Shown: positions 7,257-22,552 of the stretch, piece by piece
Layout of the letters: each line of letters begins with the position of its first letter
Position numbering within the stretch: position 1 is the stretch's first letter
DNA from: Candidatus Magasanikiibacteriota bacterium
Lineage (GTDB): Bacteria; Patescibacteriota; Patescibacteriia; Magasanikbacterales; UBA922
NCBI GenBank assembly: GCA_016207245.1
Contig: JACQQA010000005.1
Span: forward strand, 64,068-128,067
Length of the DNA stretch: 64,000 bases
Direction of reading: 5' to 3'
The notes under the pieces: model-generated
What the model saw: only the letters and a program-made list of their open reading frames with translations
The model's database searches: none
What the model was told of the DNA's origin: nothing
Translations under genes and position numbers: made by a program

Positions 7257-7265
7257 TGGTATAAT
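7257..7265 (+). promoter_or_regulatory. Extended -10 promoter element upstream of the VirB6-like gene
   Basis: TGgTATAAT lies 24 nt upstream of the ATG at 7289. No good -35 was seen. Confidence 0.45.
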
Positions 7266-7288
7266 ACCATCATCTTCAAACAACCAGC

Positions 7289-10200
7289 ATGCAGAGCTTA
7301 TTCAAGCGAAAATTTTTTCTTATCCTGAAACGGTTTTCAGGTTTATTGAGGCTTAGAAAAAGCCGTGTTGGTTTTGGCGTTTTAACTGCGGTTTTAGCGT
7401 TGGGTGCTGCGGGATTTTTTATTCCCTCAGCGGCAAGAGCTTTGGGCGACATGGAAACTTTTTCCGGGGGTTTGATGCTGGCAATCAGCAAGTTCGCCTT
7501 GGGTTTGGGCGAGTTTTTTATAAAAATGAGCATTTTTTTCCTGCGGTTCTTTATCGCGTTAGCCCAATACAACAACTATATTGATTCTCCGGTGGTAAAA
7601 CTCGGCTGGCTCATGGTGCGCGATGTCGTCAATATGTTTTTTGTGGTGATTCTGTTAGTTATCGCCATCGGCACGATACTCGGCATGGAGCAATATCAGT
7701 GGAATAAGACTTTGGTGAAATTGATTTTAAGCGCGGTATTTGTAAATTTCAGCAATTTAATCAGCCAGCTTTTCATTGACGCGGCGCATATTTTCACCTT
7801 GACTTTTGCCAGCGCGATCTCCGCCACTGCCGGCGGAAATTTAATAAACATGTTTCATTTTGAAAAAATTTACGCCATCACTACCGGGAAAGTTGATGTC
7901 GGCGTGAAAGGAGAAAGTTTTGACATGATGGGCCGGACGCTGGTGGCTTCAATCGTGGCTATGTTATTCGCTCTGCTGGCCATGCTGGTGATGGGCGCTT
8001 ACGCGATAATGATGCTTTTACGGATGACCGTGCTGTGGGTTTTGATTATTTTATCGCCAATGGCGTTTTTGTTTATCGCTTTGCCGCAGACAACGAATCG
8101 CTATGGCGAATGGTGGAAAGAATTTTCCAATTACGTGGTGCTGGCGCCGACGATTTCGTTTTTCATGTGGCTGGCTTTTGCCACCGCCGGTTCCGGCACG
8201 CTGGGTTCTGATATTGGCATCACTGACAGCATGTTGCAGTCCGGCCAAATAGACTCGGTCGGCGCTTTGACTTTGTCCGCGGTGACAACTTGGGAAAACA
8301 TGGCGAATTTTTTGGTCGCTATCGTCTTGTTGTTCGTCGGTTTGCAGGAGGTGCAGAAACTCAATGTTGCCGGCGGCAGTGTCGCGAGCAAAGCTAAGGA
8401 TTTTTTCGGCAAAGTGGCGACGATCGCCACCGGTTACGCGGCCGGAAGATGGTTGGCTGGGAAAGCGGCGGCTGGAGCGAAAGCTGGCGTTGGTTTGGCA
8501 TGGAAAGGAACAAAAACCGCGGCGTGGTATGGGGTGAGAGGACAACAGTGGAAAGAGTGGGGGCAATATCAATATGCTTCTTTTCAGGCTTGGCGCAAAA
8601 ATACTCGCCGTCAGCCAAAACTTAAAACAGATGAAAAGGGGGAATTAATTAGAGTTGATGGCAAAGTGGTTTGGGATACCGATGAACAAGGCAGGGTTAT
8701 AATGGAAGAGGCGCCACCGGAAGGCATTAAAAGTGGAATTCAGCATTGGTTAAATAAGCGCGTGCAAGCAGATGATTTTAGCGCCAAGAGATTGAAGAAA
8801 ATGCAGGATTTTGAAAAAAAGAGAGAGGAATTGAATAGTCGTTATATTAGTGCTAATCCATCCCATAAATTTTTTATGGATGAAGCGGAACGTAATTCCG
8901 TAATGGAGATGAGAGACGAAAACGGTGAAGTAATGAAGGATGAAAAAGGGAAAACCAAGTATATACGTACTGATATTGCCAGGTTTGAATCTGGTATTGA
9001 GGAATTTAATAAAGCCAGGTCTAATGATAAAACCAAAGAGCATGCGGCGATGGGTCAGGCAGCGGCTGGCGCGGCCGAAAGGTACAAACTGACCGGCACA
9101 GAAGGTAAAATTCCGGTGTTGACTATAGTAGTAAAGAAAAAAGAGGATGAGACATCAATCAATGAACAAAGAGCCGGACACCAGATACGTTCGGAGTTTT
9201 GGGAAACAGCGATGACAAACGGGTTAGAGAAAGCCAAGTTAGATTACGCGTCATCTGAAGAAGGGCGGCAGTTTTTAGTTAATAAAGACGATTTGCGTTT
9301 GTCAACCGAGGCGGCCAAAGATAATTTTGTGGCAATAGAGAAAGAAATAGAGGAAGAGGCTTTAGGAGAGGGCAGGAAGGAGTATGAGGAAATGACTGCG
9401 AGAATAGAGGAAGAACAAAAAAAATTGCTTTCGGGAAAAGAAGTTTCTTTGTCAGCGGAATTAACAGGCATCGAAGATCAGATAGATGAAAAACAGCAAA
9501 AACTTTCTAGTCCGCTTATGGAAAGCGCTGATGCAGCTAGAGATGAGTACTTGGCCAAGCGAAAAGGATTGGAAAATAATCGGTCAGTGGTGGATAAGGA
9601 AGCAGTGGAAGAAATGGGGAAATTGAGCGAAGATGAAAGAAAAAGCATGGACGAACGTGTAAGTATAGAAAATGAGATTAATAATGCGGAGAAGATGCTC
9701 GGTGAGGCAAAGACACAGAAAGAAAAGAGTGTCGCAAGTGCAGATGTTGAAGGTTGGAAGCAAGTACTGGCTGACTTTGATGAGAAATATAAAGGTACGA
9801 CATTGGGTGCGTTTTTGGAAAAGGCCAAAGCTCATGATGTGATAGAGGAAAAAATAAGTACGTTGGACGCTGAATATAATATGGAAAAACTTCGGCGTGA
9901 ACAAGAAATAGAGCGAGTTGTGACCACAGATCCGGAATTGCAACGGTTAAGAGAAGAAAGGAAGACAAAAGAAAAAGCGTTGAAAGAAGCAGGCACGAAG
10001 TATCAACAGACCGATGAATATAAAACAAAGAAAGCAGAGGTTGATAGTAGAATCGAAGAGATAGAAAGAGGTATGAGCACGGCTGGGGCAGAGAGAATAA
10101 AAGCAAAAATTACGCGCCAAACATCAGAGGCGGCAGCTAAAAGAGCAGAAGAGCAGGCTATGCGAGCGGCCATGGGAGTTAATGGTTTGAGAAAGTTGTT

Positions 10201-12073
10201 TGAAGCGGCGCAAGTTGAAGAAATTTTGACCGATGCTGCCAAAAAATTTGTTGATGAAATTAAACAGGTGAAGCTCAAGGATTTGTTTGAAAAATCATTG
10301 AACAACATAAAACAATTTGGCAAGCAGGAGAGACAGTTAAAAGATGTAGAAAGAAAAGAGAAAATGGAAGAAGATCCGGCAAAAAAAGCAGAACAAAGGG
10401 CACAAATGGATGGGCTTAGAAAGGAGTTGAAAGGGTTACGCGAAGACATGGAGGCGCAGGCTGGCATCCAAATGGTGACGGCAAATGTGAGGCAGAAATA
10501 TACTCAAGAGGCGACAGGTATCGCGAAAGGAGAATTGGAAGATGAAGCAGATACAGTATATACACAAGAGCGGTACGGGTATGATTCCCCAGCTACGGCC
10601 TTCAAAGCTTTAATAAAGAAAAAAATGGATGAATTTCAAGGAGTGGAAAGAGAGCAATCAGTAGAAATGGCAATGGGGTCATTGGCGCATTTGGTTTCTT
10701 TACGTAAAGCGGGGGAAAGGTTGTCGCGCGATCAAGAAGCGATGCTAATGGCTGGTGTAACGTATTTGACCAAGCAAGCATGGTCTGATGATTTGTTAGA
10801 CAGAATGGCCAAAAAAACCAGAAGATTGAGGAGCGGTGGTCTACAGGGCGAGGAAAGAAAAAAGATGGAAGCAATTGAAGATTTGATGATTAATGAGTTG
10901 CATTGGGGGTCGGTGGATAAAGATACGGGGCAATGGAAAATCGTCAATCAATCTGACAACCGGCGCACGAATGATCTGCATCGTTTAATTGCTTATGGTG
11001 GTGATTCTGAATTGCTTGGCGCTGAAAACGCTGTCTTGAAACAGATGAACGTAACAGGATTGGGTTATGGTGCGGCGGCGGAGAAGATCGCCAAGGAAGT
11101 TCAAGCTGCTTTTGCGGGTAAGGAAATAAACGTATCAGCGCCGGAATTTAGTAGTGTGGCAAAAAAATTAGGATTTGACCCATCAGTAGAAAGGGATTTA
11201 AAGCAACTGCAAAATTTTGTCAGTAAATTTGTAGTCGGTGCTAAAGATGCTAAGGATTCTGTGGGTAGGTTTAAGGATTCAGTTAAGGACCATTTTGAGG
11301 CAAACCAAATGCTTGCCGACGCCAAAAATTTAGCTATGGCAGTCGGTCATCTTGATGATGGTGGACACACGTTTTATGACCAAAATGAAGGTGTATTCAG
11401 AGGAATGACACCGGAAGCGGCTATGCAATTTATTTTGTCGGATTGGCGCAAGGTTGGTTCTGATGAAAGGATGAAAAAATTAAAGGTTCATACCATTGCC
11501 CAGATGAACGAAGACACTGGCACGATAGCAATCGACGCTCGCAATCGAGACGCCATTCGTGAAACTTTTTTGAACGTTGACACTGAGTTAAACTTCAATA
11601 AGATGGATGGGCGTACAGTTGATCAAGTTGCCGGTTTGGCAGCAGGCGAAGCCGCGTTTATTGACCCAACAACAGGTAGGATGGTTTTGGGTCACAAAAA
11701 TTCGAAAATGCAATCGGGGACATTTGGCTATATAGAAGATGCTGGAAAAAGAGAAGAGGCGGCGTTAATTCAGTTGGCGGACAATTTCGCTGTGTTTTTA
11801 AATGAAGCGCCGACGATTTTGGCTGCATCATTGGGTAAACGGTCAAACGTGGGATTTGACCAGTCTGTAACCGGCGTATTTAATTGTCAGTTGCCTAACG
11901 GGAAGGTTATAAATAATGTAGATGATATAATAGATTTTGTTGAAACATACCAAAGAAGGAAGGAAGATCCAAAGGAGCGCATTGATTTAAATAATAAGAT
12001 GCAAATAAAGAAAGCGTTTACCAAACGACAATCTCAGCCACGAAAAAAGAAAAAAGAAGGGGAGGAAGAGTGA
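7289..12073 (+). CDS. VirB6/TrbL-like polytopic membrane protein fused to a ~1200-aa charged coiled-coil region
   Basis: The first ~400 aa contain multiple hydrophobic helices (e.g. FFVVILLVIAIGTILG, LVASIVAMLFALLAMLVMGAYAIMMLL, VLIILSPMAFLFIAL), laid out like T4SS VirB6/TrbL-type channel proteins. The remainder is K/E-rich and heptad-like. It is the first gene of an operon-like run ending in PrgI/VirB4. Confidence 0.6.
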   Translation: MQSLFKRKFFLILKRFSGLLRLRKSRVGFGVLTAVLALGAAGFFIPSAARALGDMETFSGGLMLAISKFALGLGEFFIKMSIFFLRFFIALAQYNNYIDSPVVKLGWLMVRDVVNMFFVVILLVIAIGTILGMEQYQWNKTLVKLILSAVFVNFSNLISQLFIDAAHIFTLTFASAISATAGGNLINMFHFEKIYAITTGKVDVGVKGESFDMMGRTLVASIVAMLFALLAMLVMGAYAIMMLLRMTVLWVLIILSPMAFLFIALPQTTNRYGEWWKEFSNYVVLAPTISFFMWLAFATAGSGTLGSDIGITDSMLQSGQIDSVGALTLSAVTTWENMANFLVAIVLLFVGLQEVQKLNVAGGSVASKAKDFFGKVATIATGYAAGRWLAGKAAAGAKAGVGLAWKGTKTAAWYGVRGQQWKEWGQYQYASFQAWRKNTRRQPKLKTDEKGELIRVDGKVVWDTDEQGRVIMEEAPPEGIKSGIQHWLNKRVQADDFSAKRLKKMQDFEKKREELNSRYISANPSHKFFMDEAERNSVMEMRDENGEVMKDEKGKTKYIRTDIARFESGIEEFNKARSNDKTKEHAAMGQAAAGAAERYKLTGTEGKIPVLTIVVKKKEDETSINEQRAGHQIRSEFWETAMTNGLEKAKLDYASSEEGRQFLVNKDDLRLSTEAAKDNFVAIEKEIEEEALGEGRKEYEEMTARIEEEQKKLLSGKEVSLSAELTGIEDQIDEKQQKLSSPLMESADAARDEYLAKRKGLENNRSVVDKEAVEEMGKLSEDERKSMDERVSIENEINNAEKMLGEAKTQKEKSVASADVEGWKQVLADFDEKYKGTTLGAFLEKAKAHDVIEEKISTLDAEYNMEKLRREQEIERVVTTDPELQRLREERKTKEKALKEAGTKYQQTDEYKTKKAEVDSRIEEIERGMSTAGAERIKAKITRQTSEAAAKRAEEQAMRAAMGVNGLRKLFEAAQVEEILTDAAKKFVDEIKQVKLKDLFEKSLNNIKQFGKQERQLKDVERKEKMEEDPAKKAEQRAQMDGLRKELKGLREDMEAQAGIQMVTANVRQKYTQEATGIAKGELEDEADTVYTQERYGYDSPATAFKALIKKKMDEFQGVEREQSVEMAMGSLAHLVSLRKAGERLSRDQEAMLMAGVTYLTKQAWSDDLLDRMAKKTRRLRSGGLQGEERKKMEAIEDLMINELHWGSVDKDTGQWKIVNQSDNRRTNDLHRLIAYGGDSELLGAENAVLKQMNVTGLGYGAAAEKIAKEVQAAFAGKEINVSAPEFSSVAKKLGFDPSVERDLKQLQNFVSKFVVGAKDAKDSVGRFKDSVKDHFEANQMLADAKNLAMAVGHLDDGGHTFYDQNEGVFRGMTPEAAMQFILSDWRKVGSDERMKKLKVHTIAQMNEDTGTIAIDARNRDAIRETFLNVDTELNFNKMDGRTVDQVAGLAAGEAAFIDPTTGRMVLGHKNSKMQSGTFGYIEDAGKREEAALIQLADNFAVFLNEAPTILAASLGKRSNVGFDQSVTGVFNCQLPNGKVINNVDDIIDFVETYQRRKEDPKERIDLNNKMQIKKAFTKRQSQPRKKKKEGEEE

Positions 12074-12102
12074 GATTAAAAGTTAAAAGTTTGAAGTAAA
12101 AT

Positions 12103-13527
12103 ATGCCAATAGTATATTTAGAAAATCCAGACAAATGGCTGGTGCCAAAGAAAAAAATGTTGGCTGATTTTGTTTCGCAAGCAGAAGGTGTCTTTGAAGG
12201 GGGGTGGGAAAAGGGTTCTTTGTGGCAATTATTTTCTTTTTTTGTTGAGGAGATGGAGACGGTGGAGATTGGCGATAATTATAACGAGATAGAGAAGATT
12301 TATCTCACTTATTTTGCCTATTTGGCTAATGATGATTTTGCGGACATATCTAATCTGCTGAAAACCGCCGTACAAAACCGCGTCGGACAATCAAATGTGG
12401 CAGACACACGAAAGCGGGTTGAATTGCAAAATATATTGGAACTTAAAAAATCAACCGCGGTTGATTTGATTAATCGCTTGAGTTGGGATGAGCTGGAGAA
12501 ATTGATGGATCTCTACGCGAGAGCCAAAAAGAAATTTATTCTAATTAGCACCGCTCTCTTGCATTACCAGCCCGCGCGCTCTCTTGATTATGAACAACTA
12601 AAAATGATCTTGCTCGGAGAAGAGCTGTCGGAAGAAAAAATAAAAGATTGGTTGCCGGTAGTTCGTCATTTGGCTCAGGGTTTTTTTGGCGACGATGGTC
12701 AGGTGAGGGACTTGGCCGTCGGCGTGCTGGTAAATTTAAAAGCGCAAGAAAATGGCGATGATAGCTTTACGATTACAGTAATTACCGCGCTCCTGCTGTT
12801 TGTCGCGTTCAAAGATTTTTATTCACTGAATAAAAATAATAAAATAGCACTTTTGAGCAAATATGGCTGGTGTGCTATGTTGATGGGTGTTCCTTGGCAG
12901 AAGAAAATTCAAGAAGGATTGACTGACGAACCATTTCTTGAGTACTATGTGTCATCTTCGGAGATTTTAGCAAAGTCGATTTTAGATAACCAAGAACCAA
13001 TAGTGGGCGGTAGCGCATTGTCTTTGGGCGGGTTTATCAGTCAATACGCGGCCGCCGTTCCGGTGGAAAAACAAAATGATTCACTCAGACAGGACCAATT
13101 CATTGCTGAATTAAACAAAGTAAATGATTGGCCGGAAGAAATCATGGTTGCTTTGAAAGGAATCCTTGATTTTTATTTGCACTTACGCGACTGCGACCTG
13201 GTGGACTACAAAGGCATGTTGAGCGAGGCGGGTGTTAAATCGCCACCGTTTGATTGGAGAGATTTAGTTTTTCGAGATTTAAGCGACGTAGATTTGGCAG
13301 AGGTGAGGGAATACATGAAAATTTTACGGCGGCCTTTTTCAGTCAGATCCGTGATTATTGTCGATTTTATGGATGTCGATTGGCGAAAAGAGCCGTATTT
13401 ATCGCGTCTTTTGACTTTAAGCGAAGTTTATGAAGAGATATATGGCCCCATTCACGAACCGTTGGTTTATTTTGATGATAAAACCGGACAGTGGGAATTG
13501 AATCAGACAAGGCCGCCAATTATTTAA
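12103..13527 (+). CDS. Hypothetical cytoplasmic protein (474 aa)
   Basis: Long ORF tightly spaced after the VirB6-like gene. No motif recognised. The C-terminal half shows weak by-eye similarity to the next ORF. Confidence 0.6.
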   Translation: MPIVYLENPDKWLVPKKKMLADFVSQAEGVFEGGWEKGSLWQLFSFFVEEMETVEIGDNYNEIEKIYLTYFAYLANDDFADISNLLKTAVQNRVGQSNVADTRKRVELQNILELKKSTAVDLINRLSWDELEKLMDLYARAKKKFILISTALLHYQPARSLDYEQLKMILLGEELSEEKIKDWLPVVRHLAQGFFGDDGQVRDLAVGVLVNLKAQENGDDSFTITVITALLLFVAFKDFYSLNKNNKIALLSKYGWCAMLMGVPWQKKIQEGLTDEPFLEYYVSSSEILAKSILDNQEPIVGGSALSLGGFISQYAAAVPVEKQNDSLRQDQFIAELNKVNDWPEEIMVALKGILDFYLHLRDCDLVDYKGMLSEAGVKSPPFDWRDLVFRDLSDVDLAEVREYMKILRRPFSVRSVIIVDFMDVDWRKEPYLSRLLTLSEVYEEIYGPIHEPLVYFDDKTGQWELNQTRPPII

Positions 13528-14964: not shown

Positions 14965-15014
14965 ACCTTTCACCATTGGCTCTGTCATCGTGATATTTAA
15001 AGTATATAATGAAA

Positions 15015-15200
15015 ATGGTTTTTTGTCAAGTGGATAACATTTATGCCTGCCCCGCTAAAACAATCCTCGTCAAAACCCCAACAATTACAACTTATTTTTC
15101 GCTTGATTTAGCCAAAGGAAGTAAAAATGCGGCAAAATGGTAGTGTGGTAGTAGAAAAAGTAGGGAAAAAATGGGAGTACGGTATAAAATAATCATAAGG
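15015..15200 (+). repeat. Copy 2 of the degenerate duplicate of the ORF 16512 5' end; contains a 42-codon mini-ORF
   Basis: 15060-15075 (ACAATCCTCGTCAAAA) is identical to 16527-16542 within the true gene start. 15111-15200 aligns with copy 1 (14529-14599). Confidence 0.65.
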
Positions 15201-15211
15201 TAAAGTTAAAC

Positions 15212-15240
15212 TTGACTTTGAAATAAAGGTATGGTAAAAT
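15212..15240 (+). promoter_or_regulatory. Promoter of the AAA ATPase gene
   Basis: TTGACT (15212-15217), 17-nt spacer, TGg-TAAAAT (15235-15240). Confidence 0.6.
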
Positions 15241-15269
15241 GAAAGTGCAGTTTAGAAATACATACACTT

Positions 15270-16508
15270 ATGATAAAAAACTTGATAAAACGTGATATTT
15301 TAGATGAAATTTTGAAGTATATCAATAAAGACGATGTTTTGGTGTTACATGGCGCGAGACAAGTTGGAAAAACATCCATAATGCTCTGTTTGCAAAATCA
15401 ACTGAATGCGGACGGTGAAAAAACATACTTTTTTGATCTTGAGGATTCAAGAAAAACAGACATCCTTGACGCTGGCGTGGAAAATTTTTTATCTTATCTT
15501 GAGGGGGCGGGATTTGATTTGAAAGAATTAAGCCGGTCGGATAAAAAATTATTTGTCTTTATAGATGAGATACAGAATCTTAAGAAACCGTCGTCTTTTT
15601 TGAAATTGTTGGCAGATCATCATAAGTATTTAAAGCTAATTGTGTCGGGTTCGTCCAGTTTTGATATTAAGAATAAATTTAGCGATTCGCTCGTTGGCCG
15701 GATAGTCAACTTTGAAGTTTTTAATTTATCATTCAGCGAGTTCTTGAGGTTTAAAAGCATTAACTATAACTTGGAACAGGTGTCTAAACTTGGCAAAGGG
15801 CCGATTTTTGAAGATGTCGTCCGTATGTATCGCGAATATGTTTTTTATGGCGGATATCCGAAGATTGTTTTGCAAGATTCAATAGAAATAAAAGAAAAAT
15901 ATTTGCAGATTATAATTGACACCTATGTGCGGAAAGACATAAGAGATTTGGTTAATATTGTGGAAATAGAAAAGTTTAATAATTTATTGAAAGTTTTGGC
16001 GGGGCAGAGCGGACAGCTTTTAAGCGTATCTGCCACGGCAAGCACAATAGGTTTGGCGGCGCAGACAGTTGAACAATATTTATCAATTTTAGAGAACACG
16101 TATATTATAAAGCTTGTCCATCCGTTTAGCCGTAGCGCCAATGTTGAGGTGTCAAAGGCGTCTAAAATATTTTTTTATGATACCGGTTTGTTGCAGGTAT
16201 TGCGTTATAAAGAACTGAGTGCGAGGATTAGCGGCGATTTGTTTGAAACTAGCGTTTTTGCCGAGCTCGTAAAAAAATATGGACGCGAGCACATACATTT
16301 TTGGCGGACACACAGGCACGCGGAAGTTGATTTTATTTTGGATTTGCGCGCTTTTCTTTTGCCGATAGAGGCGAAGACGAATTTTAGAAATTTTCAAAAA
16401 CATGCTGTCGGTTCATTTTGTCAGAAATATAAAGCCAAAGACTACAAAGTTGTTGGTTTAGAAGGAAAGAAAAAAGACGAACACTGCATTTATCCTTGGG
16501 AACTTTAA
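15270..16508 (+). CDS. AAA-family ATPase of the DUF4143-containing type
   Basis: Walker A is HGARQVGKTS and Walker B is LFVFIDEIQ. The 412-aa length and C-terminal region are typical of the archaeal/bacterial ATPase-plus-DUF4143 family, which is often found as an isolated accessory gene. Confidence 0.75.
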   Translation: MIKNLIKRDILDEILKYINKDDVLVLHGARQVGKTSIMLCLQNQLNADGEKTYFFDLEDSRKTDILDAGVENFLSYLEGAGFDLKELSRSDKKLFVFIDEIQNLKKPSSFLKLLADHHKYLKLIVSGSSSFDIKNKFSDSLVGRIVNFEVFNLSFSEFLRFKSINYNLEQVSKLGKGPIFEDVVRMYREYVFYGGYPKIVLQDSIEIKEKYLQIIIDTYVRKDIRDLVNIVEIEKFNNLLKVLAGQSGQLLSVSATASTIGLAAQTVEQYLSILENTYIIKLVHPFSRSANVEVSKASKIFFYDTGLLQVLRYKELSARISGDLFETSVFAELVKKYGREHIHFWRTHRHAEVDFILDLRAFLLPIEAKTNFRNFQKHAVGSFCQKYKAKDYKVVGLEGKKKDEHCIYPWEL

Positions 16509-16511: not shown

Positions 16512-17675
16512 ATGGCAAATCAACCCACAATCCTCGTCAAAAAATCCGACGGCACGTCCGTAAGGATGAGTTGGGATGAGTTTCAAATTTACATGCGAAA
16601 TGCGAAAGACGCGAAAATGCGAAATGAGAAAAAAACGAGCGAATCACAGACTCCGAAATCAAAAATCATAACTCCTAAATCAGAACCACGAACTCCGGTT
16701 GGTGAATTGCCGGCGCTAGAGAGTGAAGTGTTGCCGGCGACGACGGCGCCGGTGAAGGAGATCTTTGTGGACGAAGCGAAATACATGCGAAATGCGAAAT
16801 ACGCGAAAATGCGAACAGCGAAAAATTATAAGATTGAGAGATTAAAAGATTATGGCAAAAAAGATTGGACGGCGGATGACAATAAATCATTGTTGGAAGA
16901 TGCGGTTGGTGAAGCGGTGAAAACGAAATCCGCGAATGTTTTGCCGAGCAAGAGGGATGATTTGTATGATTTGTTTGTTAAAGAAATTAGATTTCCGATT
17001 AAAGATGAGATGCGGGGGAGATTGAATTCCCTGGCAGTGTCTTTTGTTAAGGGGGTGAGGACCGAAGACCAGATGCGCGGGTATTTGCAAAGGAGCGAGG
17101 CGGATGGCGGGTTGGGATTTTCTGAAGAACAAACATCAGCGGTGATTGGAGCGATAAAAAAGGTTTGGCATTTGGCGAACACACCCCTCGCCCCTCTCCG
17201 AGAGGGGAGTTCGCAAATTCTCTCCTCCGAGAGGGGAAATTTAAGATTCCCCACTAAGAGTGAAGATCACAAGCTCCCTCCTCGGAGGAGGACGGGGGAG
17301 GTGTTGGGGATTAACACCAAACCTTTGGTTCAAGATGTGACGCCGCCGAAAGTTGAGCCAACCAAGAAAGTTTCCCTGGGGCCGATTGACGAAATCGCGA
17401 CAATGACATTGACAGATTTTCGCCGTTTGGCGACTGGCGGGATTGATTCGGTTCAGGTTTTGCGAGATAAGTTCTCGGCTTTAAGGAAAGAATCTGTTAT
17501 AATATACCTTCAAGCGCTGGACGCGTGGTTCGCGAGCCCTGTTTACAAAGATTACCAAAATTTAATCAAGCGCGCGGTGAATGAGGGGAGAAAGTTGACG
17601 GAGGTGGTGAACGATGGTGGTGGAATAAAATGGGAAGAACTGACGCGGATAGCGGAGGTGGGAAGGGCGGTTTAA
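16512..17675 (+). CDS. Hypothetical protein (387 aa) carrying three in-frame copies of intergenic-type repeats
   Basis: Long ORF. Contains the ATGCGAAATGCGAAA-type unit twice (16593-16626, 16785-16825) and the CCCCTCTCCGAGAGGGG composite element (17175-17310). The C-terminal ~110 aa look like ordinary globular sequence. Confidence 0.6.
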   Translation: MANQPTILVKKSDGTSVRMSWDEFQIYMRNAKDAKMRNEKKTSESQTPKSKIITPKSEPRTPVGELPALESEVLPATTAPVKEIFVDEAKYMRNAKYAKMRTAKNYKIERLKDYGKKDWTADDNKSLLEDAVGEAVKTKSANVLPSKRDDLYDLFVKEIRFPIKDEMRGRLNSLAVSFVKGVRTEDQMRGYLQRSEADGGLGFSEEQTSAVIGAIKKVWHLANTPLAPLREGSSQILSSERGNLRFPTKSEDHKLPPRRRTGEVLGINTKPLVQDVTPPKVEPTKKVSLGPIDEIATMTLTDFRRLATGGIDSVQVLRDKFSALRKESVIIYLQALDAWFASPVYKDYQNLIKRAVNEGRKLTEVVNDGGGIKWEELTRIAEVGRAV

Positions 17676-17721
17676 ACATATAAACATTTTAACTTTTAAA
17701 CATAACAACGAACTGGAGGAT

Positions 17722-18078
17722 ATGCCGAATTTTTGCGATGAATTGAAATTAAAAATGCATGAATATGTAAAAAATGCGTATCATTTGGCGAGAAAGTTCC
17801 CAACGGAAGAACTTTATGGAGTTACTTCACAATTGAGAAGATCCGCATTGTCAGTAATACTGAATTTTATTGAAGGGTACGCAAGATTTAAACCGGGCGA
17901 TAAACTACGTTTTTGGGAAATATCCTATGCATCGCTGAAAGAATCAAAGTACTTGCTTTACTTCAGTATGACCGAAGATTATCTCACCAAAGAAGAGTAT
18001 AAGCAAATATTAACAAATGCCGAGGAAGTGGGGAAAATGTTATGGCGTGTTATGTCGCCATTGCGCGAGGGTAAGTGA
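17722..18078 (+). CDS. Four-helix-bundle protein (23S rRNA intervening-sequence protein family)
   Basis: 118 aa. EELYGVTSQLRRSALSVILNFIEGYAR matches the family signature (..L.sQlrRaa.Si..NiaEG..r). GGAGG lies 3 nt upstream of the ATG. Confidence 0.8.
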   Translation: MPNFCDELKLKMHEYVKNAYHLARKFPTEELYGVTSQLRRSALSVILNFIEGYARFKPGDKLRFWEISYASLKESKYLLYFSMTEDYLTKEEYKQILTNAEEVGKMLWRVMSPLREGK

Positions 18079-18109
18079 TGTTAAGATGTTTTTATGTTAA
18101 GATGTTAAA

Positions 18110-18547
18110 ATGTCTATGCAACAGTTTGTAGTACCGCAATTCATTGACGTGGAAGACAAGATTTTCGGGCCGATAACCGTAAGGCAATTTTTGATTCTGC
18201 TGGCCGGCGGTCTGCTGGTGTTTCTCGCTTTCAAATACGCGGATTTCGCCTTGTTCATCACGAGTTTAATAGTTGTGGGAGGTGGTTCGCTGATTGTGGC
18301 GTTTGTAAAAATCAACGGTCAAACATTTCATTATTTTATTTTAAATTTATTGCAGACTGTCCGTCGGCCGGGACTGCGCGTGTGGCGGAAAAATTATGAC
18401 AAAGACGAATTAAATTATTTGCGCTTACTGGAGCCGCCGGAGATTGAAATTAAAGAAGTGAGGAAGGCGGCGCGGAGCGAACATATCAGAGATTTGGCTT
18501 TAATCGTGAATACCGGCGGGTTTTATCGGCCGGAGGAGGATTTATGA
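18110..18547 (+). CDS. PrgI-family (VirB3-like) small T4SS membrane protein
   Basis: The N-terminus QFVVPQFIDVEDKIFGPITVRQFLILLAGGLLVF, followed by two TM helices, is the PrgI-family pattern. The ORF overlaps the next ORF by 4 nt. Confidence 0.7.
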   Translation: MSMQQFVVPQFIDVEDKIFGPITVRQFLILLAGGLLVFLAFKYADFALFITSLIVVGGGSLIVAFVKINGQTFHYFILNLLQTVRRPGLRVWRKNYDKDELNYLRLLEPPEIEIKEVRKAARSEHIRDLALIVNTGGFYRPEEDL

Positions 18548-19233
18548 AAAACGAAAAAGTTAAAAAGAAAAAAACCGGCAAGCCATCCACGCAGACTCAT
18601 CTGCCGATCGCGGAGATTAAAGACGGCGTGGTGGTTTTGAAAGACGGAACTTTGCGCGCGGTGCTGATGACTTCCAGCATTAATTTCGCGTTGAAATCCG
18701 AAGACGAACAAAACGCCTTGATTTCATCTTATGTGAGTTTTTTAAATTCTTTGGATTTTCCTTTGCAAATCGCCATCCAATCGCGCCGTTTGCAGATTAA
18801 GCCTTACGTGGAAAAATTAATCCAACTGGAAAAAGAACAGCCAAACGAGCTTTTGCGCATTCAAACCGCTGATTACCGCTCTTTCATTCAAGAGTTGATA
18901 CAAATGGGGCAGATCATGACCAAGCGTTTCTACGTGGTGGTTCCGTATGATCCGCTTTCCAACAGCAGAAAATCTTTTTGGGCCAAATTTAAAGAGGTGC
19001 TGAAACCGGCTTTGAGCGTGCGGTTGAAAGAAGAAAGATTCAAACAGCGGGTGGAAGATTTAAATTTGCGTTTGCGCCAAGTGTTTTCCGGTTTGCAAGG
19101 CATGGGGCTCGAAGTGGTCCAGCTTGACACCCAGGCGGTGATTGAGTTGTTTTATTCCAGCTACAATCCGGACATCTCTTTTGCCGAACAATTACAGCCG
19201 ATTGAACAACTACAGATTGAACATAATCTATAA
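18544..19233 (+). CDS. VirB4 N-terminal-domain-like protein (separate ORF)
   Basis: LPIAEIKDGVVVLKDGTLRAVLMTSSINFALKSEDEQNALISSYVSFLNSLDFPLQI resembles the N-terminal domain of Gram-positive VirB4/PrgJ/TcpF-type ATPases. TAA at 19231-19233 is followed 1 nt later by the ATG of the ATPase ORF, which is in another frame. Confidence 0.55.
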   Translation: MKNEKVKKKKTGKPSTQTHLPIAEIKDGVVVLKDGTLRAVLMTSSINFALKSEDEQNALISSYVSFLNSLDFPLQIAIQSRRLQIKPYVEKLIQLEKEQPNELLRIQTADYRSFIQELIQMGQIMTKRFYVVVPYDPLSNSRKSFWAKFKEVLKPALSVRLKEERFKQRVEDLNLRLRQVFSGLQGMGLEVVQLDTQAVIELFYSSYNPDISFAEQLQPIEQLQIEHNL

Positions 19234-19234
19234 T

Positions 19235-21139
19235 ATGGCTTTTAAGCCGATCACAACTGACAAGCGGTTCCTTGGCGGAGCGAAAGCGCAAGAGGAAACA
19301 GAAAAGAAAAAGAAAGAAGTGAAAGAGGGGCTGATTTCTTTGGAAGAGGAGCGCGTTTATCGCGAAGGCACGGTCGCCATCCGCGATTTAATCGCGCCGT
19401 CCGCTTTTCGGGTTGAGTCAAATTTCATCCAATTGGGCGAAACGTTTTTGCGCACGATTTTCGCCATCACTTATCCGCGCTATATCGCCGTGGGCTGGAG
19501 CGCGCCGATTTTGAATTTCAACGCCACCATGGACACGTCAATGTTTTTTTATCCGATTAATTCAGCGATTATTTTAAAACAATTAAAAAAGAAAGTCGGC
19601 GTGTTAGAGGCGCAAATCAGCGCGGACGCGGAAAAAGGCGCGGCGCGCGATCCGTTGCGCGAAACCGCTCTCCGCGATATTGAACAACTGCGCGATGATT
19701 TGACGCAAGGCACCGAACACTTCTTTCAGTTTGCTTTTTATGTCACTTTGTACGCGAAATCAGTTGACGAGCTGAACAAAATGACGGAAGACATTGAAAA
19801 TGTGTTTGGCGCGCGGTTGATTTACAGCAAGCATGTCTTGTTTCAGGCCGAACAGGGTTTCAATTCCACTATGCCGCTGTGCGTGGATGAATTAAACATC
19901 GCTTTTAACATGAATTCATCGCCGATCGCCGCGTCTTTCCCGTTTATGTCCGCCGAACTGACCAGCGACAACGGCATTTTATACGGCATCAACCAGCACA
20001 ATAATAGTTTAATTTTGTTTGATCGTTTTAGTTTGCAAAACGCCAATATGGTGGTGTTCGCGACATCCGGCGCCGGTAAATCATACGCGGTGAAGCTTGA
20101 AGTTTTGCGCAGTCTAATGATGGGCACTGACATCATTATCATTGATCCGGAAATGGAATATCAGCATTTGTGCGAAGCGGTTGGCGGCACTTACGTCAAT
20201 ATTTCTTTGGCATCGGAAAGCAAAGTTAATCCATTTGATTTGCCCCGTCCGGTCGGCCAGCAGATTTCCACCGAAGACGTGATTAGAAGCGCGATAATCA
20301 CTTCAAAAGGATTAATCAGGATAATGTTCGGCTCTTTAAGCGCGTTGGAAGATTCAGTAATGGATCAGGCCTTGCGCGAGACTTACGCGAAAAAAGATAT
20401 CACGCCCAGCTCTAATTTAGCCACGGTTGAACCGCCGATAATGCAGGATTTATTGGATGTTTTGGAAGGCATGGAAGGGGCGCAGACATTGGTTTTGAAA
20501 CTTAAAAAATATACGGAAGGCACTTTTTCCGGTTTATTTAATTCGCCGACCAATGTTAACATGAATAATCAGCTCGTGGTTTTCAGCGTACGCGATTTGG
20601 AGGACGAATTACGGCCAATGGCGATTTATAGTTTGGTTAATTATGTTTGGAATATTGTCAGGAGTGAGCGGAAAAAACGCTTGTTGATTATTGACGAAGC
20701 GTGGTGGCTGATGACGCATGAAGACAGCGCGAAATTTATTTACGCGCTGGTTAAAAGATGCCGCAAGTATTATCTGGGCGTTACGACTATTACGCAAGAC
20801 GTCAATGATTTTTTGCAATCGCAGTATGGACATTCTATCGTTACCAACTCGGCTTTACAACTTCTTTTGCGCCAATTGCCGGCCGCAGTTGATATTATCC
20901 AAAAAACTTTCATGCTGACTGAAGGCGAGAAATATTTATTGCTGGAAAGCGCGGTGGGCGAAGGGATTTTTTTCGCCGGTTTGAAGCGCGCCGCGATTAA
21001 AGTCGTCGCGTCTTACACCGAAGACCAACTGATCACTTCCGATCCGGCGCAGTTGATGCAGATAGAAAAAGCCAAACAAGAGTTTGAAGCGCAGATGGGC
21101 GCGCCGCAGGGCGGCAAACAGGATATGGATATAGGATAG
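19235..21139 (+). CDS. virB4: VirB4-type T4SS ATPase, C-terminal ATPase part
   Basis: Walker A is ATSGAGKSYAVK and Walker B is RLLIIDEAWWLM. GVTTITQD and the overall layout are typical of VirB4/TraE/DUF87 ATPases. The start was moved to ATG 19235 because the track's 19142 extension overlaps the previous gene and reads as nonsense. Confidence 0.85.
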   Translation: MAFKPITTDKRFLGGAKAQEETEKKKKEVKEGLISLEEERVYREGTVAIRDLIAPSAFRVESNFIQLGETFLRTIFAITYPRYIAVGWSAPILNFNATMDTSMFFYPINSAIILKQLKKKVGVLEAQISADAEKGAARDPLRETALRDIEQLRDDLTQGTEHFFQFAFYVTLYAKSVDELNKMTEDIENVFGARLIYSKHVLFQAEQGFNSTMPLCVDELNIAFNMNSSPIAASFPFMSAELTSDNGILYGINQHNNSLILFDRFSLQNANMVVFATSGAGKSYAVKLEVLRSLMMGTDIIIIDPEMEYQHLCEAVGGTYVNISLASESKVNPFDLPRPVGQQISTEDVIRSAIITSKGLIRIMFGSLSALEDSVMDQALRETYAKKDITPSSNLATVEPPIMQDLLDVLEGMEGAQTLVLKLKKYTEGTFSGLFNSPTNVNMNNQLVVFSVRDLEDELRPMAIYSLVNYVWNIVRSERKKRLLIIDEAWWLMTHEDSAKFIYALVKRCRKYYLGVTTITQDVNDFLQSQYGHSIVTNSALQLLLRQLPAAVDIIQKTFMLTEGEKYLLLESAVGEGIFFAGLKRAAIKVVASYTEDQLITSDPAQLMQIEKAKQEFEAQMGAPQGGKQDMDIG

Positions 21140-21155
21140 TATTTAATTATTTTTT

Positions 21156-21755
21156 ATGTTGGACATACGCAAACGAATCTTTATTATCTTAAGTTTGGCG
21201 ATTGGCTTTATTTTGGCTTTCACGCTGTTGTTTTATTTTTTATCAAACAAAAAGAAGGCCGAAGAGGCAGTAGCGCCGTTGACTGGAGAGACAACAACGG
21301 AGACTGCTTCCACATTGCCGAGCGGAGTTTCCGCGCCGACCGGCGGAACAGTCGCGCAACCAGCCAAAGCGCCGGAGGTTTTTGTTCCGGTTGAGAAGTC
21401 GCGCGAGATTTACGCGAAGCAGATCGCCAGATTATTCGTGGAAAGATTCACCACTTTTTCCAATCAGAACGGCAACACGCATATTGATGATGTTTTAATT
21501 TTATCCACCGCTCAAATGGGCAAGTGGATTGAAACACAAAAAATTAAAGCGGCGGCGGAATATCAGGGCGTAACCACGAAAGTGATTGCCGCGAGCGTTT
21601 TAAATATTTCTGACAATAGCGCGTCAGTCAAAGTTGACACCCAACAAATTAAAAGCAGCTCCGGCAAGCAAGAAACGACATATCGGTCAGGCACGGTTGA
21701 TTTGGTTGATGTGAATGGGGAGTGGAAAGTGGGTGGATTCTATTGGGAAAAATAA
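21156..21755 (+). CDS. N-terminally membrane-anchored protein, possible VirB8/PrgL-like (NTF2-like) component
   Basis: Single TM helix (IFIILSLAIGFILAFTLLFYFL), a Thr/Pro/Ala linker, then a ~120-aa domain with a helix-then-strands pattern ending ..VNGEWKVGGFYWEK. The call rests on position directly after VirB4 and is an inference. Confidence 0.3.
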   Translation: MLDIRKRIFIILSLAIGFILAFTLLFYFLSNKKKAEEAVAPLTGETTTETASTLPSGVSAPTGGTVAQPAKAPEVFVPVEKSREIYAKQIARLFVERFTTFSNQNGNTHIDDVLILSTAQMGKWIETQKIKAAAEYQGVTTKVIAASVLNISDNSASVKVDTQQIKSSSGKQETTYRSGTVDLVDVNGEWKVGGFYWEK

Positions 21756-21759
21756 TTGA

Positions 21760-21844
21760 CATGCGAAATGCGAAAGACTGCGAAATTGCGAAAAAACAGT
21801 TGTAGTAATTGTTCGCATTTTCGCAGTCTTTCGCATTTCGCATG
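21760..21844. repeat. Large inverted repeat built from the ATGCGAAATGCGAAAGAC unit
   Basis: 21760-21785 and 21819-21844 are perfect 26-nt reverse complements. The arms extend to 34 nt with 2 mismatches, and the loop is 17 nt. It lies between the stop of 21156-21755 and comFC. Confidence 0.9.
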
Positions 21845-22552
21845 TTTTTTATGTTTAGCCCATCAGGACAGAAAATAATTGAAGTTGCCAAGGATTGTTT
21901 GTTTCCGATCTTTTGTTTAGATTGCGGCAAAGAGGGCGAGTGGATTTGTCCGGATTGTTTTGGCAAAATGGATTTGCGCGGCGTTTTTTGTTGTCCGGTT
22001 TGCCATCGGCCGAATGGGAGCGGAACTTGTTGCGCAATTTGCCAGCCGCAATCTTGTTTAGACAAAGCAATGGCGATTGCGGTTTATCAGGAGGAAAATT
22101 CGGTCGGGCGATTGATTAAGGCGCTAAAATATAATTACGCTGAAGATGCGCTGGCGGCGTTCGCGAAAATGATTGACGGTTTTTTAATTCATCAACTCGG
22201 CGTTTTGTCAGAAGTTGATTTGATTGTTCCGGTGCCTTTACACCGCCGCCGTTTGGTTGAACGCGGATTCAATCAAGCGAGATTATTGGCGGATATTTTG
22301 GGGCAGAAAATCGGACGGCCGGTGGTTGAATGGTTGCAGCGAGAGCGTTACACCATGCAACAAGCTAAACTTTCCCGCGAAGAACGTCGCGCGAACGTTC
22401 ATCAGGCTTTTGCTAATGGTGATTTTAAGGCTGACGCGGTTTTGTTGGCTGACGATGTTTTTACTACCGGCGCGACTATGCAGGAGTGCGCGCGGGTGTT
22501 AAAAAGTTCCGGCGTTAAAAAAGTGATTGGATTTAGCGTTGCGAGGGGGTAG
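21842..22552 (+). CDS. comFC: ComF-family competence protein (phosphoribosyltransferase type)
   Basis: N-terminal Cys4-type zinc motifs (CLDCG..CPDCF..CPVCH..CAIC) and the C-terminal PRTase motif VLLADDVFTTGATM. The start was placed at ATG 21842 (or 21851) because the track start at 21809 lies in the inverted-repeat arm. Confidence 0.85.
   Translation: MFFMFSPSGQKIIEVAKDCLFPIFCLDCGKEGEWICPDCFGKMDLRGVFCCPVCHRPNGSGTCCAICQPQSCLDKAMAIAVYQEENSVGRLIKALKYNYAEDALAAFAKMIDGFLIHQLGVLSEVDLIVPVPLHRRRLVERGFNQARLLADILGQKIGRPVVEWLQRERYTMQQAKLSREERRANVHQAFANGDFKADAVLLADDVFTTGATMQECARVLKSSGVKKVIGFSVARG

What the first reader, a model, noticed from the sequence alone, without database searches (positions are those of the whole stretch)
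7257..22552. T4SS-like gene set (VirB6-like, PrgI, split VirB4, possible VirB8-like) ending in comFC, with no relaxase or coupling protein in sight
One co-directional run contains the following genes, in order. A VirB6/TrbL-like polytopic protein is fused to ~1200 aa of coiled coil (7289). Two unknown, possibly paralogous proteins follow (12103, 13534). Then come a repeat-riddled unknown (16512), PrgI/VirB3-like (18110), a VirB4 N-domain ORF (18544), the VirB4 ATPase (19235), a TM-anchored NTF2-like candidate VirB8 (21156) and finally comFC (21842). No VirD4, relaxase, VirB11 or lytic transglycosylase is visible in the window. dprA and recG lie further downstream. Two giant proteins at 56334 and 58548 start with VirB2/TrbC-like pilin modules. 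VirB4/VirB6 homologues have been noted before in CPR genomes. Even so, this combination points to a minimal Gram-positive-type T4SS core used for DNA uptake or cell-cell contact rather than conjugation. The combination is a huge coiled-coil VirB6 fusion, a split VirB4, linkage to competence genes and pilin-anchored adhesins.
Basis: partly seen in the sequence, partly recalled or inferred. Interest (0 to 1): 0.6.

Follow-up and report, generated by a model that had tools for sequence, protein, structure and literature searches.

The report
Published Patescibacteria type IV secretion operon

Summary
Window 7289-22552 (+ strand) encodes, in order:
- an extended VirB6-like protein;
- two unknown proteins, which profile searches show to be paralogous;
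- a conserved unknown soluble protein ('X', 16512);
- PrgI/VirB3;
- TrsD, a separate ORF resembling the VirB4 N-terminus;
- a VirB4 ATPase of the CD1110/MPF_FATA type;
- a bitopic protein whose predicted fold best matches VirB8, TcpC and PrgL;
- ComFC.

The order VirB6ext-X-PrgI-TrsD-VirB4-VirB8like-ComFC recurs in about 32-41 of 44 related ABY1 loci, with median gaps of 6-33 nt. TrsD and VirB4 are separate ORFs in every locus that has both, so the "split VirB4" is real and not a frameshift.

No relaxase, coupling protein, VirB11 or VirB1 was found in the 64 kb, which otherwise holds housekeeping genes. Two giant downstream proteins do start with VirB2-like pilin modules.

All of this matches the T4SS described by Wang et al. 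2023 (Cell) and Quinonero-Coronel et al. 2025 (Microb Genom). The 2025 paper already reports TrsD, the pilins, the missing relaxase, VirB8 being confined to ABY1, and the comF/recG linkage in ABY1.

Interest is low to moderate. What the system transports remains untested.

The parts
2..5392 (+). Giant Cys-rich protein, more than 1795 aa, with its N-terminus beyond the left edge of the window. It is a conserved upstream neighbour of the VirB6-like gene and possibly a surface or adhesin component.
   Evidence: The frame is open from nt 2. It has no Pfam or NCBIfam hit. Homologs lie directly upstream of the VirB6-like gene in L010, L025, L030, L032 and L033, with a 9-nt gap in L033.
5402..7074 (.). 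Insertion separating the giant gene from virB6. It comprises a hairpin terminator (5402-5436), a minus-strand 146-aa ORF (5505-5945), MNT (6455-6736) and HepT (6733-7074).
   Evidence: The stem has 15 pairs. Pfam gives Polbeta/NTP_transf_2 and HepT-like. MNT matches PADLOC PDC-S09. tblastn found no homolog of these genes in any of the 44 related loci.
7289..12073 (+). Extended VirB6/TrbL-like polytopic membrane protein, 1594 aa. The TM domain covers about residues 1-360 and is followed by a hydrophilic extension of about 1230 aa.
   Evidence: There are 8-10 hydrophobic segments, and the tail after the last TM is K/R-rich. Relatives hit TrbL PF04610 in 12 of 34 and 6 of 33 cases. The family has 21,581 representatives, and almost all of the best 150 are 860-2164 aa long. 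The N-terminal domain is conserved in 32 loci.
12103..13527 (+). Unknown 474-aa protein, paralog of 13534. It occupies a variable slot in the operon.
   Evidence: It has no family hit. Reciprocal profile hits link it to the 13534 family. The slot holds 0-2 ORFs in relatives.
13534..14490 (+). Unknown 318-aa protein, paralog of 12103.
14653..16508 (+). Inserted genes: a truncated NYN-domain ORF (14653-14964) and an AAA_14/DUF4143 ATPase (15270-16508). These are not T4SS parts.
   Evidence: Pfam results are. The ATPase matches PADLOC PDC-S01 at 258 bits. GC falls to 0.355 here. The genes occur only in L001 and L002.
16512..17675 (+). 'X': conserved soluble protein of unknown function, always immediately upstream of prgI.
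   Evidence: Homologs occur in 36 of 44 loci, with a median gap to prgI of 6 nt. It has no TM segment. The model has three small folded modules joined by disordered linkers. Foldseek against the PDB gave no match (best E 1.7), and a profile search of the PDB gave no hit.
17722..18078 (+). 23S-rRNA-intervening-sequence (four-helix) protein, an inserted gene.
   Evidence: PF05635 scores 93.7 bits. It is absent at this position in relatives. In L022 a homolog lies between trsD and virB4.
18110..18547 (+). PrgI/VirB3-like small membrane protein.
   Evidence: PF12666 scores 35 bits, above the cutoff of 27. It has hydrophobic segments. Homologs occur in 40 loci.
18544..19233 (+). TrsD: a stand-alone ORF resembling the VirB4 N-terminal domain.
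   Evidence: NF041427 TrsD gives E 4e-9, and the N-terminal parts of VirB4 models also match. It aligns to residues 9-107 of an unsplit VirB4. It is a separate ORF in all 40 loci measured.
19235..21139 (+). VirB4 ATPase of the CD1110/MPF_FATA type, lacking the N-terminal domain.
   Evidence: NF045971 scores 346 bits, above the cutoff of 325. P-loop_TraG and AAA_10 also hit. Walker A (SGAGKS) and Walker B (LLIIDEAW) can be read in the translation.
21156..21755 (+). VirB8-like bitopic protein: a TM helix, a disordered linker and an NTF2-like domain.
   Evidence: The model has pLDDT 79 overall and above 90 in the domain. The top Foldseek matches are TcpC 3ub1, R388 TrwG, CagV, PrgL and TraH. Homologs occur in 38 loci, a median of 22 nt after virB4.
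21842..22552 (+). ComFC: double zinc ribbon plus phosphoribosyltransferase-like domain. It is the last gene of the run.
   Evidence: TIGR00201 gives E 2.8e-28 and GntX E 7e-28; Pfam results are. It follows the VirB8-like gene within 150 nt in 32 of 33 loci.
56334..64000 (+). Two tandem giant proteins with a signal peptide, a VirB2-like two-TM pilin module and then Ig-like domains (Big_5, TIG). They are candidate pilus or adhesin partners, 35 kb from virB4.
   Evidence: PF18895 scores 32.5 and 35.6 bits. The head modules are 50% identical.

Best explanation
[quoted passage not shown] It is related to the conjugation machinery of monoderm bacteria (MPF_FATA) but has no DNA-processing module.

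The inferred machine is a cytoplasmic-membrane translocon made of:
- an extended VirB6, which forms the channel or platform. Its ~1230-aa tail is probably cytoplasmic by the positive-inside rule;
- PrgI/VirB3, which anchors the ATPase to the membrane;
- VirB4 as the motor, with its N-terminal domain supplied in trans by TrsD;
- a bitopic VirB8-like protein, which spans the wall side of the membrane.

X and the 12103/13534 paralogs are lineage-specific accessory proteins of unknown role. VirB2-like modules, encoded 35 kb away at the heads of giant Ig-domain proteins, are candidate surface partners.

In Southlakia epibionticum the equivalent cluster is essential for growth on the host, while ComEC, ComF and DprA are dispensable. 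By analogy, the most likely job here is contact-dependent exchange with a host cell (protein export or import of host molecules), not plasmid conjugation.

**Shown:** gene identities, conserved order, the real split of VirB4, and the absence of relaxase and T4CP from the 64 kb.
**Inferred:** the assembly, the topology, the substrate and the direction of transport.
For: - **Component identities:**
- **Taxon:** the 21156 and 16512 proteins are 100% identical to NCBI Candidatus Magasanikbacteria proteins HY569_01240 and HY569_01215. The VirB4 is 97% identical to that of Magasanikbacteria RIFCSPLOWO2_12_FULL_43_12.
- **Vertical inheritance:** VirB4 identity falls gradually from 98% to 52% across 44 Patescibacteria loci while the gene order is kept. 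Median gaps within the core are 6-33 nt. L033 shows a compact 8-gene form.
- **Chromosomal setting:** the flanks hold topA, dprA, pth, der, recG, hisS, lepB and tRNAs. GC is like that of the flanks except over the inserted genes.
- **MPF_FATA affinity:** the best model is conju_CD1110, and the closest plasmid homologs are from Firmicutes and Actinobacteria.
- **Literature:** PMC12102498, PMC10633639 and PMC12857230 describe the same system and its essentiality, and PMC12102498 reports the comF/recG linkage in ABY1.
Against: - No experiment exists for any ABY1 member.
- The VirB6 assignment rests on sub-threshold TrbL hits in relatives. The window protein itself hits nothing.
- The NTF2-like fold of 21156 also matches unrelated NTF2 proteins, such as the CaMKII hub and bile-acid dehydratases, at similar E-values. 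It has no sequence-level link to VirB8.
- Only 64 kb of the genome was examined, so a T4CP or relaxase elsewhere cannot be excluded.
- The tight coupling to comFC is not explained by a pure host-interaction role.
Confidence: 0.85

Rival explanations
1. In ABY1 the T4SS is a DNA (or nucleotide) import machine coupled to the competence pathway. VirB4 and TrsD would pull DNA through the VirB6/VirB8 channel and pass single strands to the co-transcribed ComFC and then to DprA. This would resemble H. pylori ComB or the archaeal Ced system.
For: - comFC follows the VirB8-like gene within 150 nt in 32 of 33 loci, and in several loci the two overlap.
- dprA (35313-36392) and recG (43035-45239) lie within 25 kb.
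- PMC12102498 notes the association of comF, recG and radA with the T4SS in ABY1.
- No export-type DNA-processing genes were found.
Against: - In the only genetically tested Patescibacterium, transformation needs ComEC. ComEC, ComF and DprA are dispensable there, whereas the T4SS is essential (PMC10633639; PMC12857230).
- ComFC is a cytoplasmic protein of the ComEC pathway, and gene adjacency in a compact genome is weak evidence.
- The match to the CedB model is weak (43 bits against a cutoff of 700).
Confidence: 0.1
2. It is a working conjugation system whose relaxase, oriT and coupling protein are encoded elsewhere in the genome.
For: - T4CP genes often lie far from virB4. PMC12102498 reports 5,713 VirD4-like proteins in Patescibacteria, mostly not near virB4.
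- Only 64 kb was inspected here.
Against: - Relaxases are rare in Patescibacteria: 109 in 103 genomes, against 2,474 virB4 genes.
- None was found in the window.
- The cluster is chromosomal and syntenic across the class, which fits vertical inheritance.
Confidence: 0.04
3. It is a decaying remnant of an integrated conjugative element and no longer functions.
For: - Relaxase, T4CP and VirB1 are missing.
- The operon is interrupted by inserted genes (NYN fragment, PDC-S01 ATPase, IVS protein, MNT/HepT).
Against: - All core ORFs are intact, and the Walker motifs are present.
- The order and tight spacing are conserved across 44 loci down to 52% VirB4 identity.
- No integrase or attachment repeats were seen.
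- The homologous system is essential in Southlakia.
Confidence: 0.01

Closest known systems
Patescibacteria-clade T4SS (Wang et al. 2023, Southlakia epibionticum SEML1_0006-0019; Quinonero-Coronel et al. 2025)
   Same: - MPF_FATA-like VirB4 with a separate TrsD ORF, PrgI/VirB3 and VirB6.
- VirB2-like pilin modules in a monoderm.
- No relaxase or T4CP at the locus, and a chromosomal location.
- In ABY1 specifically: VirB8 homologs, and comF and recG nearby.
   Different: - In this window the pilin modules are not a small-pilin array inside the cluster. They head giant Ig-domain proteins 35 kb away.
- No peptidase or lysozyme gene follows virB4, unlike in Southlakia.
- The VirB8-like gene and protein X are near-constant members of the ABY1 operon in my sample (38 and 36 of 44 loci). 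The published HMM survey found only about 50 VirB8 homologs in total.
pGO1/pSK41/pIP501-type Gram-positive conjugative T4SS (trsC-trsD-trsE; TraH/TraM VirB8-like)
   Same: - The order VirB3-like, TrsD, VirB4.
- Bitopic NTF2-like VirB8-type proteins.
- No outer-membrane core complex and no VirB11.
   Different: The window has no relaxase, T4CP, VirB1-type hydrolase or topoisomerase III module. Its VirB6 is greatly extended. The locus is chromosomal and vertically inherited.
Extended VirB6 proteins (Rickettsiales VirB6 paralogs, MPF_FA VirB6, F-type TraG)
   Same: A polytopic VirB6-like domain followed by a very large hydrophilic C-terminal region of unknown role.
   Different: - The extensions share no detectable sequence similarity with one another.
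- Here the extension is rich in Glu and Lys and evolves quickly, even within Magasanikbacteria.
Pontibacillus sp. ALD_SL1 megaplasmid cluster (NZ_CP062975, 351-361 kb)
   Same: - The closest VirB4 outside Patescibacteria found in the plasmid collection (35% identity).
- The same split into TrsD-like (E 1.6e-31) and a short VirB4.
- A PrgI-like gene, a pilin-like gene and a 779-aa protein in the VirB6 position that shares only a short motif with the VirB6-like profile (hhalign E 0.0012, probability 20%).
- No relaxase within 12 kb on either side of virB4.
   Different: It is in a Firmicute, has a giant M23 peptidase downstream, has no ComFC, and has no detectable X or VirB8-like homolog.
H. pylori ComB and archaeal Ced DNA-import systems
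   Same: A VirB4-family ATPase system used without a relaxase, and a genomic link to competence or recombination genes.
   Different: ComB is a diderm VirB2-B10 system, and Ced uses the CedA proteins. No specific homology beyond VirB4 was found here. A DNA-import function is not shown for any Patescibacterium.

Membership tests
Patescibacteria-clade (MPF_FATA-derived) T4SS | VirB4 ATPase of the monoderm/CD1110 type | tested here: met
   NF045971 scores 346 bits against a cutoff of 325. P-loop_TraG scores 99.6 bits. The closest plasmid homologs are from Firmicutes and Actinobacteria.
Patescibacteria-clade (MPF_FATA-derived) T4SS | Separate TrsD ORF (resembling the VirB4 N-terminus) next to virB4 | tested here: met
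   NF041427 gives E 4e-9. TrsD and VirB4 together are colinear with an unsplit VirB4. They are separate ORFs in all 40 loci measured.
Patescibacteria-clade (MPF_FATA-derived) T4SS | PrgI/VirB3 homolog near virB4 | tested here: met
   PF12666 scores 35 bits against a cutoff of 27.
Patescibacteria-clade (MPF_FATA-derived) T4SS | VirB6/TrbL homolog near virB4 | tested here: inconclusive
   The window protein hits no model. Eighteen of 67 family members hit TrbL at E below 0.01; the scores seen individually are below the gathering score. The polytopic architecture fits.
Patescibacteria-clade (MPF_FATA-derived) T4SS | VirB2-like pilin genes in a monoderm genome | tested here: met
   PF18895 scores 32.5 and 35.6 bits against a cutoff of 26.6 at 56334 and 58548. 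The genes are 35 kb from virB4 and fused to giant proteins.
Patescibacteria-clade (MPF_FATA-derived) T4SS | No relaxase or T4CP at the locus, and a chromosomal context | tested here: met
   Pfam scans of 41 window ORFs found none. The flanks hold housekeeping genes. The rest of the genome was not searched.
Patescibacteria-clade (MPF_FATA-derived) T4SS | Required for epibiotic growth | not testable with these tools
   This has been shown only for Southlakia epibionticum (PMC10633639).
Conjugative MPF_FATA T4SS (pGO1/pIP501/pCF10/CTn2) | Relaxase with oriT, and a VirD4/TcpA-type coupling protein | tested here: not met
   None in the 64 kb. Compare the C. perfringens plasmid, which has MobC, a relaxase and a VirD4-like gene next to PrgI and VirB4.
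Conjugative MPF_FATA T4SS (pGO1/pIP501/pCF10/CTn2) | VirB1-type cell-wall hydrolase (SLT/CHAP) next to virB4 | tested here: not met
   No SLT, CHAP or M23 domain was found in the window. The only wall-related protein is a VanW/PG_binding_4 protein 6 kb downstream.
VirB8 / TcpC / PrgL / TraH family | Bitopic protein: N-terminal TM helix and an extracytoplasmic NTF2-like domain | tested here: met
   In the AlphaFold model the helix is residues 4-32, the linker 33-68 and the alpha+beta domain 79-197, with pLDDT above 90 in the domain. Foldseek's top hits are TcpC, TrwG, CagV, PrgL and TraH, with TM-scores of 0.45-0.69 normalised to the target.
VirB8 / TcpC / PrgL / TraH family | Sequence-profile match to VirB8 family models | tested here: not met
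   Pfam gives no VirB8 hit, only TcaA_5th (an NTF2-like domain) at 18 bits, below its cutoff. A profile search of the PDB finds no VirB8. Generic NTF2 folds score similarly in Foldseek.
ComB/Ced-type DNA-uptake T4SS | Demonstrated DNA import dependent on the T4SS | not testable with these tools
   The evidence is genomic linkage to comFC, dprA and recG only. The CedB model scores 43 bits against a cutoff of 700.

The most novel reading that the evidence does not exclude
In ABY1 Patescibacteria the T4SS has been wired to the competence pathway. The operon VirB6ext-X-PrgI-TrsD-VirB4-VirB8like-ComFC would be a contact-dependent nucleic-acid import machine. It would take DNA directly from a host cell, possibly through pilin-headed giant adhesins, and pass single strands to ComFC and DprA. 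That would be T4SS-based uptake in a monoderm, with X and the extended VirB6 tail as new cytoplasmic coupling parts replacing the T4CP.
Probability: 0.1. Interest if true: 0.7.

Novelty: already known. Interest (0 to 1): 0.25.

Why it matters
The Patescibacteria T4SS is the first T4SS shown to be essential to the bacterium that carries it. What it transports, and in which direction, is still unknown.

This locus adds no new kind of system. It does give a clean picture of the ABY1 form:
- a constant 7-8 gene core that includes a VirB8-fold protein, which sequence HMMs mostly miss;
- a conserved soluble protein (X) with no match among solved structures;
- an always-extended VirB6;
- a translationally tight link to ComFC.

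These are concrete targets if an ABY1 member is cultivated. Examples are interaction tests of X, the VirB6 tail and ComFC with VirB4, and tests of whether the pilin-headed giant proteins depend on the T4SS.

Tried and rejected
- **VirB6, direct tests.** Pfam, NCBIfam and PDB sequence searches of the 7289 N-terminal domain gave nothing. A PDB search with a profile of 34 orthologs also gave nothing.
- **VirB6, profile against single sequences.** hhalign of that profile against the Pontibacillus 779-aa protein and a C. perfringens 264-aa candidate VirB6 gave only a short motif match (E 0.0012, probability 20%) and no match. The VirB6 call therefore rests on transitive TrbL hits.
- **12103 against 13534.** BLASTP was not significant. 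Only profile searches linked them.
- **N-terminus of the giant protein at the window start.** I tried to see it through contigs carrying the MNT gene, and through P0001 and P0008. All contigs ended too early or belonged to other lineages. In the related loci its homologs also run off the edge.
- **Promoter and terminator scan.** Not informative, apart from the strong hairpin at 5402-5436.
- **Frameshifted VirB4.** Rejected, because the split is conserved with variable gaps. In L022 another gene sits in the gap.
- **DUF4143 ATPase as a hidden coupling protein.** Rejected. It matches defence candidate PDC-S01, hits TrwB only at 12 bits, and occurs only in the two closest relatives.
- **Decayed ICE.** Rejected on the grounds of conservation.

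Full report
**What is there.** The region 7289-22552 is a co-directional (+) run of ORFs.

- 18110-18547 is a PrgI/VirB3 protein: PF12666, 35 bits against a cutoff of 27.
- 19235-21139 is a VirB4 ATPase of the monoderm CD1110 type: NF045971, 346 bits against a cutoff of 325, plus P-loop_TraG, AAA_10 and DUF87. Walker A and B motifs are visible in the translation.
- 18544-19233 matches TrsD/TraD (NF041427, E 4e-9) and the N-terminal parts of several VirB4 models.
- 21842-22552 is a ComF-family protein with a double zinc ribbon and a PRT-like domain.

Against an unsplit 783-aa C. perfringens VirB4, the TrsD ORF aligns to residues 9-107 and the ATPase ORF to residues 192-755. The two ORFs together therefore equal one canonical VirB4.

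**VirB6.** The 1594-aa protein at 7289 hits no Pfam, NCBIfam or PDB sequence, and a profile of 34 orthologs hits nothing in the PDB.
- Its first ~360 residues hold 8-10 hydrophobic segments.
- TrbL/VirB6 (PF04610) is the only family that recurs when relatives are scanned one by one. Twelve of 34 orthologs and 6 of 33 more distant members hit it. The hits are colinear over profile positions 7-190 of 215, and the scores seen individually (19-22 bits) fall below the gathering score of 25.9.
- I accept "VirB6-like" as the best reading, but the membership test is formally inconclusive.
- An exhaustive HMM search found 21,581 cluster representatives of this family. Almost all of the best 150 are 860-2164 aa long. 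A very long C-terminal extension is thus the rule in this clade, not a peculiarity of this genome.
- Residues ~440-1200 of the extension are 31-45% charged and poor in Pro/Gly, with only patchy heptad signal. The last ~400 residues are less charged and are conserved with L007 and L024. "1200 aa of coiled coil" is therefore overstated.
- The 60 residues after the last TM hold 9 K/R against 1 D/E, which suggests a cytoplasmic tail. This is an inference.

**VirB8.** The protein at 21156-21755 has no sequence-level match to VirB8.
- An AlphaFold model built on 15 homologs gives a TM helix (4-32), a disordered linker (33-68) and an alpha+beta NTF2-like domain with pLDDT above 90.
- Foldseek against the PDB ranks TcpC (3ub1) first. 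It is followed by R388 TrwG/VirB8, CagV, Bartonella and Brucella VirB8, PrgL and pIP501 TraH.
- Generic NTF2 proteins (CaMKII hub, bile-acid dehydratases) are interleaved at similar E-values.
- The fold, the bitopic architecture and the conserved position right after virB4 together support a VirB8-like role.

**Other genes in the run.**
- 12103 and 13534 are not similar by BLASTP. Profiles of each one's orthologs find the other family in the second jackhmmer round (E 4e-8 and 1.6e-6), so they are diverged paralogs.
- They sit in a variable slot that holds 0-2 fast-evolving ORFs in relatives.
- 16512 ("X") is a soluble protein with three small folded modules and disordered linkers. It has no fold or sequence match in the PDB.
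An MNT/HepT pair lies upstream.
- GC drops to 0.355 over the NYN/ATPase insert. These genes occur only in the closest relatives.

**Context and conservation.**
- The rest of the window is ordinary chromosome: topA, a Mur ligase, dprA, pth, der, recG, a P-type ATPase, lepB, hisS and tRNAs.
- No relaxase, coupling protein, VirB11 or SLT/CHAP hydrolase was found.
- The 21156 and 16512 proteins are identical to NCBI Candidatus Magasanikbacteria proteins.
- A genome-collection scan with VirB4 returned 44 loci, with identity falling from 98% to 52%.
- Homologs in the order VirB6ext - (0-2 ORFs) - X - PrgI - TrsD - VirB4 - VirB8like - ComFC occur in 32-41 of these loci.
- Median intergenic gaps within the core are 6-33 nt. 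ComFC lies within 150 nt of the VirB8-like gene in 32 of 33 loci.
- TrsD and VirB4 are separate ORFs in every locus that has both. In L022 another gene lies between them. The split is therefore ancestral and real.
- In several loci (L025, L030, L032, L033) a giant protein homologous to the truncated ORF at the window start abuts the VirB6 gene. In this genome a hairpin terminator, a minus-strand ORF and the MNT/HepT pair have been inserted between the two.

**Pilin modules.** The proteins at 56334 and 58548 both start with a signal peptide and a two-TM hairpin that matches T4SS_pilin (PF18895) above threshold. Big_5 and TIG Ig-like domains follow. The two head modules are 50% identical.

**Comparison with what is known.** The system is published.
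- Wang et al. 2023 (PMC10633639) described an unusual Gram-positive-like T4SS with pilins and without relaxase or coupling protein in Southlakia epibionticum. They showed it is essential for epibiotic growth, while comEC, comF and dprA are not.
- Quinonero-Coronel et al. 2025 (PMC12102498) surveyed Patescibacteria and reported:
  - a monophyletic VirB4 clade related to MPF_FATA;
  - 2,272 TrsD homologs, mostly next to virB4;
  - PrgI/VirB3, VirB6 and VirB2-like pilins;
  - very few relaxases;
  - VirB8 homologs almost only in ABY1;
  - for ABY1 specifically, comF, recG and radA at T4SS loci.
- A 2025 review (PMC12857230) summarises this and defines "extended VirB6" proteins.

**What my analysis adds** is incremental:
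- The VirB8-fold gene and X are near-constant members of the ABY1 operon (38 and 36 of 44 loci).
- The extended VirB6 is universal in the family.
- The pilin modules in this genome head giant Ig-domain proteins far from virB4.
- A Pontibacillus megaplasmid carries the closest VirB4 outside Patescibacteria in the plasmid collection, with the same TrsD and VirB4 split and no relaxase within 12 kb on either side.

**Mechanism.**
- Most likely (0.85 for identity and architecture) this is a non-conjugative cytoplasmic-membrane T4SS used in contact with a host cell. This follows by analogy with Southlakia. The substrate and the direction of transport are unknown.
- The main rival (about 0.1) is that in ABY1 the machine is coupled to ComFC for DNA import. 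The tight operon linkage supports this, but the Saccharibacteria genetics argue against it, and it is untested.
- Conjugation with distant relaxase and T4CP (about 0.04) and a decayed ICE (about 0.01) are unlikely, given the conservation and the chromosomal setting.

**Verdict.** Interest is low to moderate.

Noticed in passing
window 15270-16508 and 14653-14964; 6455-7074: Candidate defence or selfish genes are inserted into and next to the T4SS operon. They are an AAA_14/DUF4143 ATPase (PADLOC PDC-S01, 258 bits) with a truncated NYN ORF in a low-GC patch (0.355), and an MNT (PDC-S09)/HepT pair upstream of virB6. The NYN and ATPase genes occur only in the closest relatives (L001, L002), in a different order in L002; the MNT/HepT pair has no homolog in any related locus.
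   Followed up: partly
window 17722-18078; L022 about 9598: A 23S-rRNA-intervening-sequence (four-helix, weakly bAvd-like) protein gene sits between X and prgI. In L022 a homolog is inserted between trsD and virB4. These small genes seem to move within the operon.
   Followed up: no
window 56334-58427 and 58548-64000: Two tandem giant proteins have N-termini made of a signal peptide and a VirB2-like two-TM pilin hairpin (PF18895 above threshold, heads 50% identical), followed by Big_5 and TIG Ig-like domains. I found no description of pilin-headed giant adhesins in the papers I read. PMC12102498 states that no adhesins were detected in Patescibacteria.
   Followed up: partly
L048 (Pontibacillus sp. 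ALD_SL1, NZ_CP062975, 351-361 kb): A Firmicute 898-kb replicon carries the closest VirB4 outside Patescibacteria in the plasmid collection (35% identity). Its cluster has the same TrsD-like plus short VirB4 split, a PrgI-like gene, an Mbov_0395 pilin-like gene, a 779-aa protein in the VirB6 position and a giant M23 peptidase. It has no relaxase and lies beside flagellar genes. It may be a non-conjugative relative or a horizontal-transfer partner of the Patescibacteria system.
   Followed up: partly
window 2-5392: A giant Cys-rich protein (more than 1795 aa, N-terminus outside the window) has no family hit. Its homologs directly precede the VirB6-like gene in several ABY1 loci, so it may be the first gene of the ancestral operon. 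I could not see whether it also starts with a pilin module.
   Followed up: partly
L050 7-4470: In one relative the VirB6-like TM domain (533 aa) and the hydrophilic extension (934 aa) are called as separate adjacent genes. The extension may therefore work as a separable module, or that contig may carry a frameshift.
   Followed up: no
window 26851-29287: An HSP20 gene and a VanW/PG_binding_4 membrane protein form a pair that is conserved 1-5 kb downstream of comFC in 16 related loci. The VanW protein is the only cell-wall-related gene near a T4SS that lacks a VirB1.
   Followed up: no
loci L004-L044 (record titles): Many related MAG records are titled 'uncultured Gammaproteobacteria' (one is 'Peregrinibacteria'), although their VirB4 is 67-98% identical to that of Magasanikbacteria and the operon is the same. 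These look like mislabelled public records.
   Followed up: no
window 22645-23013: A small GIY-YIG ORF (104 aa, weak match to a homing-endonuclease model) overlaps the 5' end of tRNA-Ser(GCT) just after comFC.
   Followed up: no
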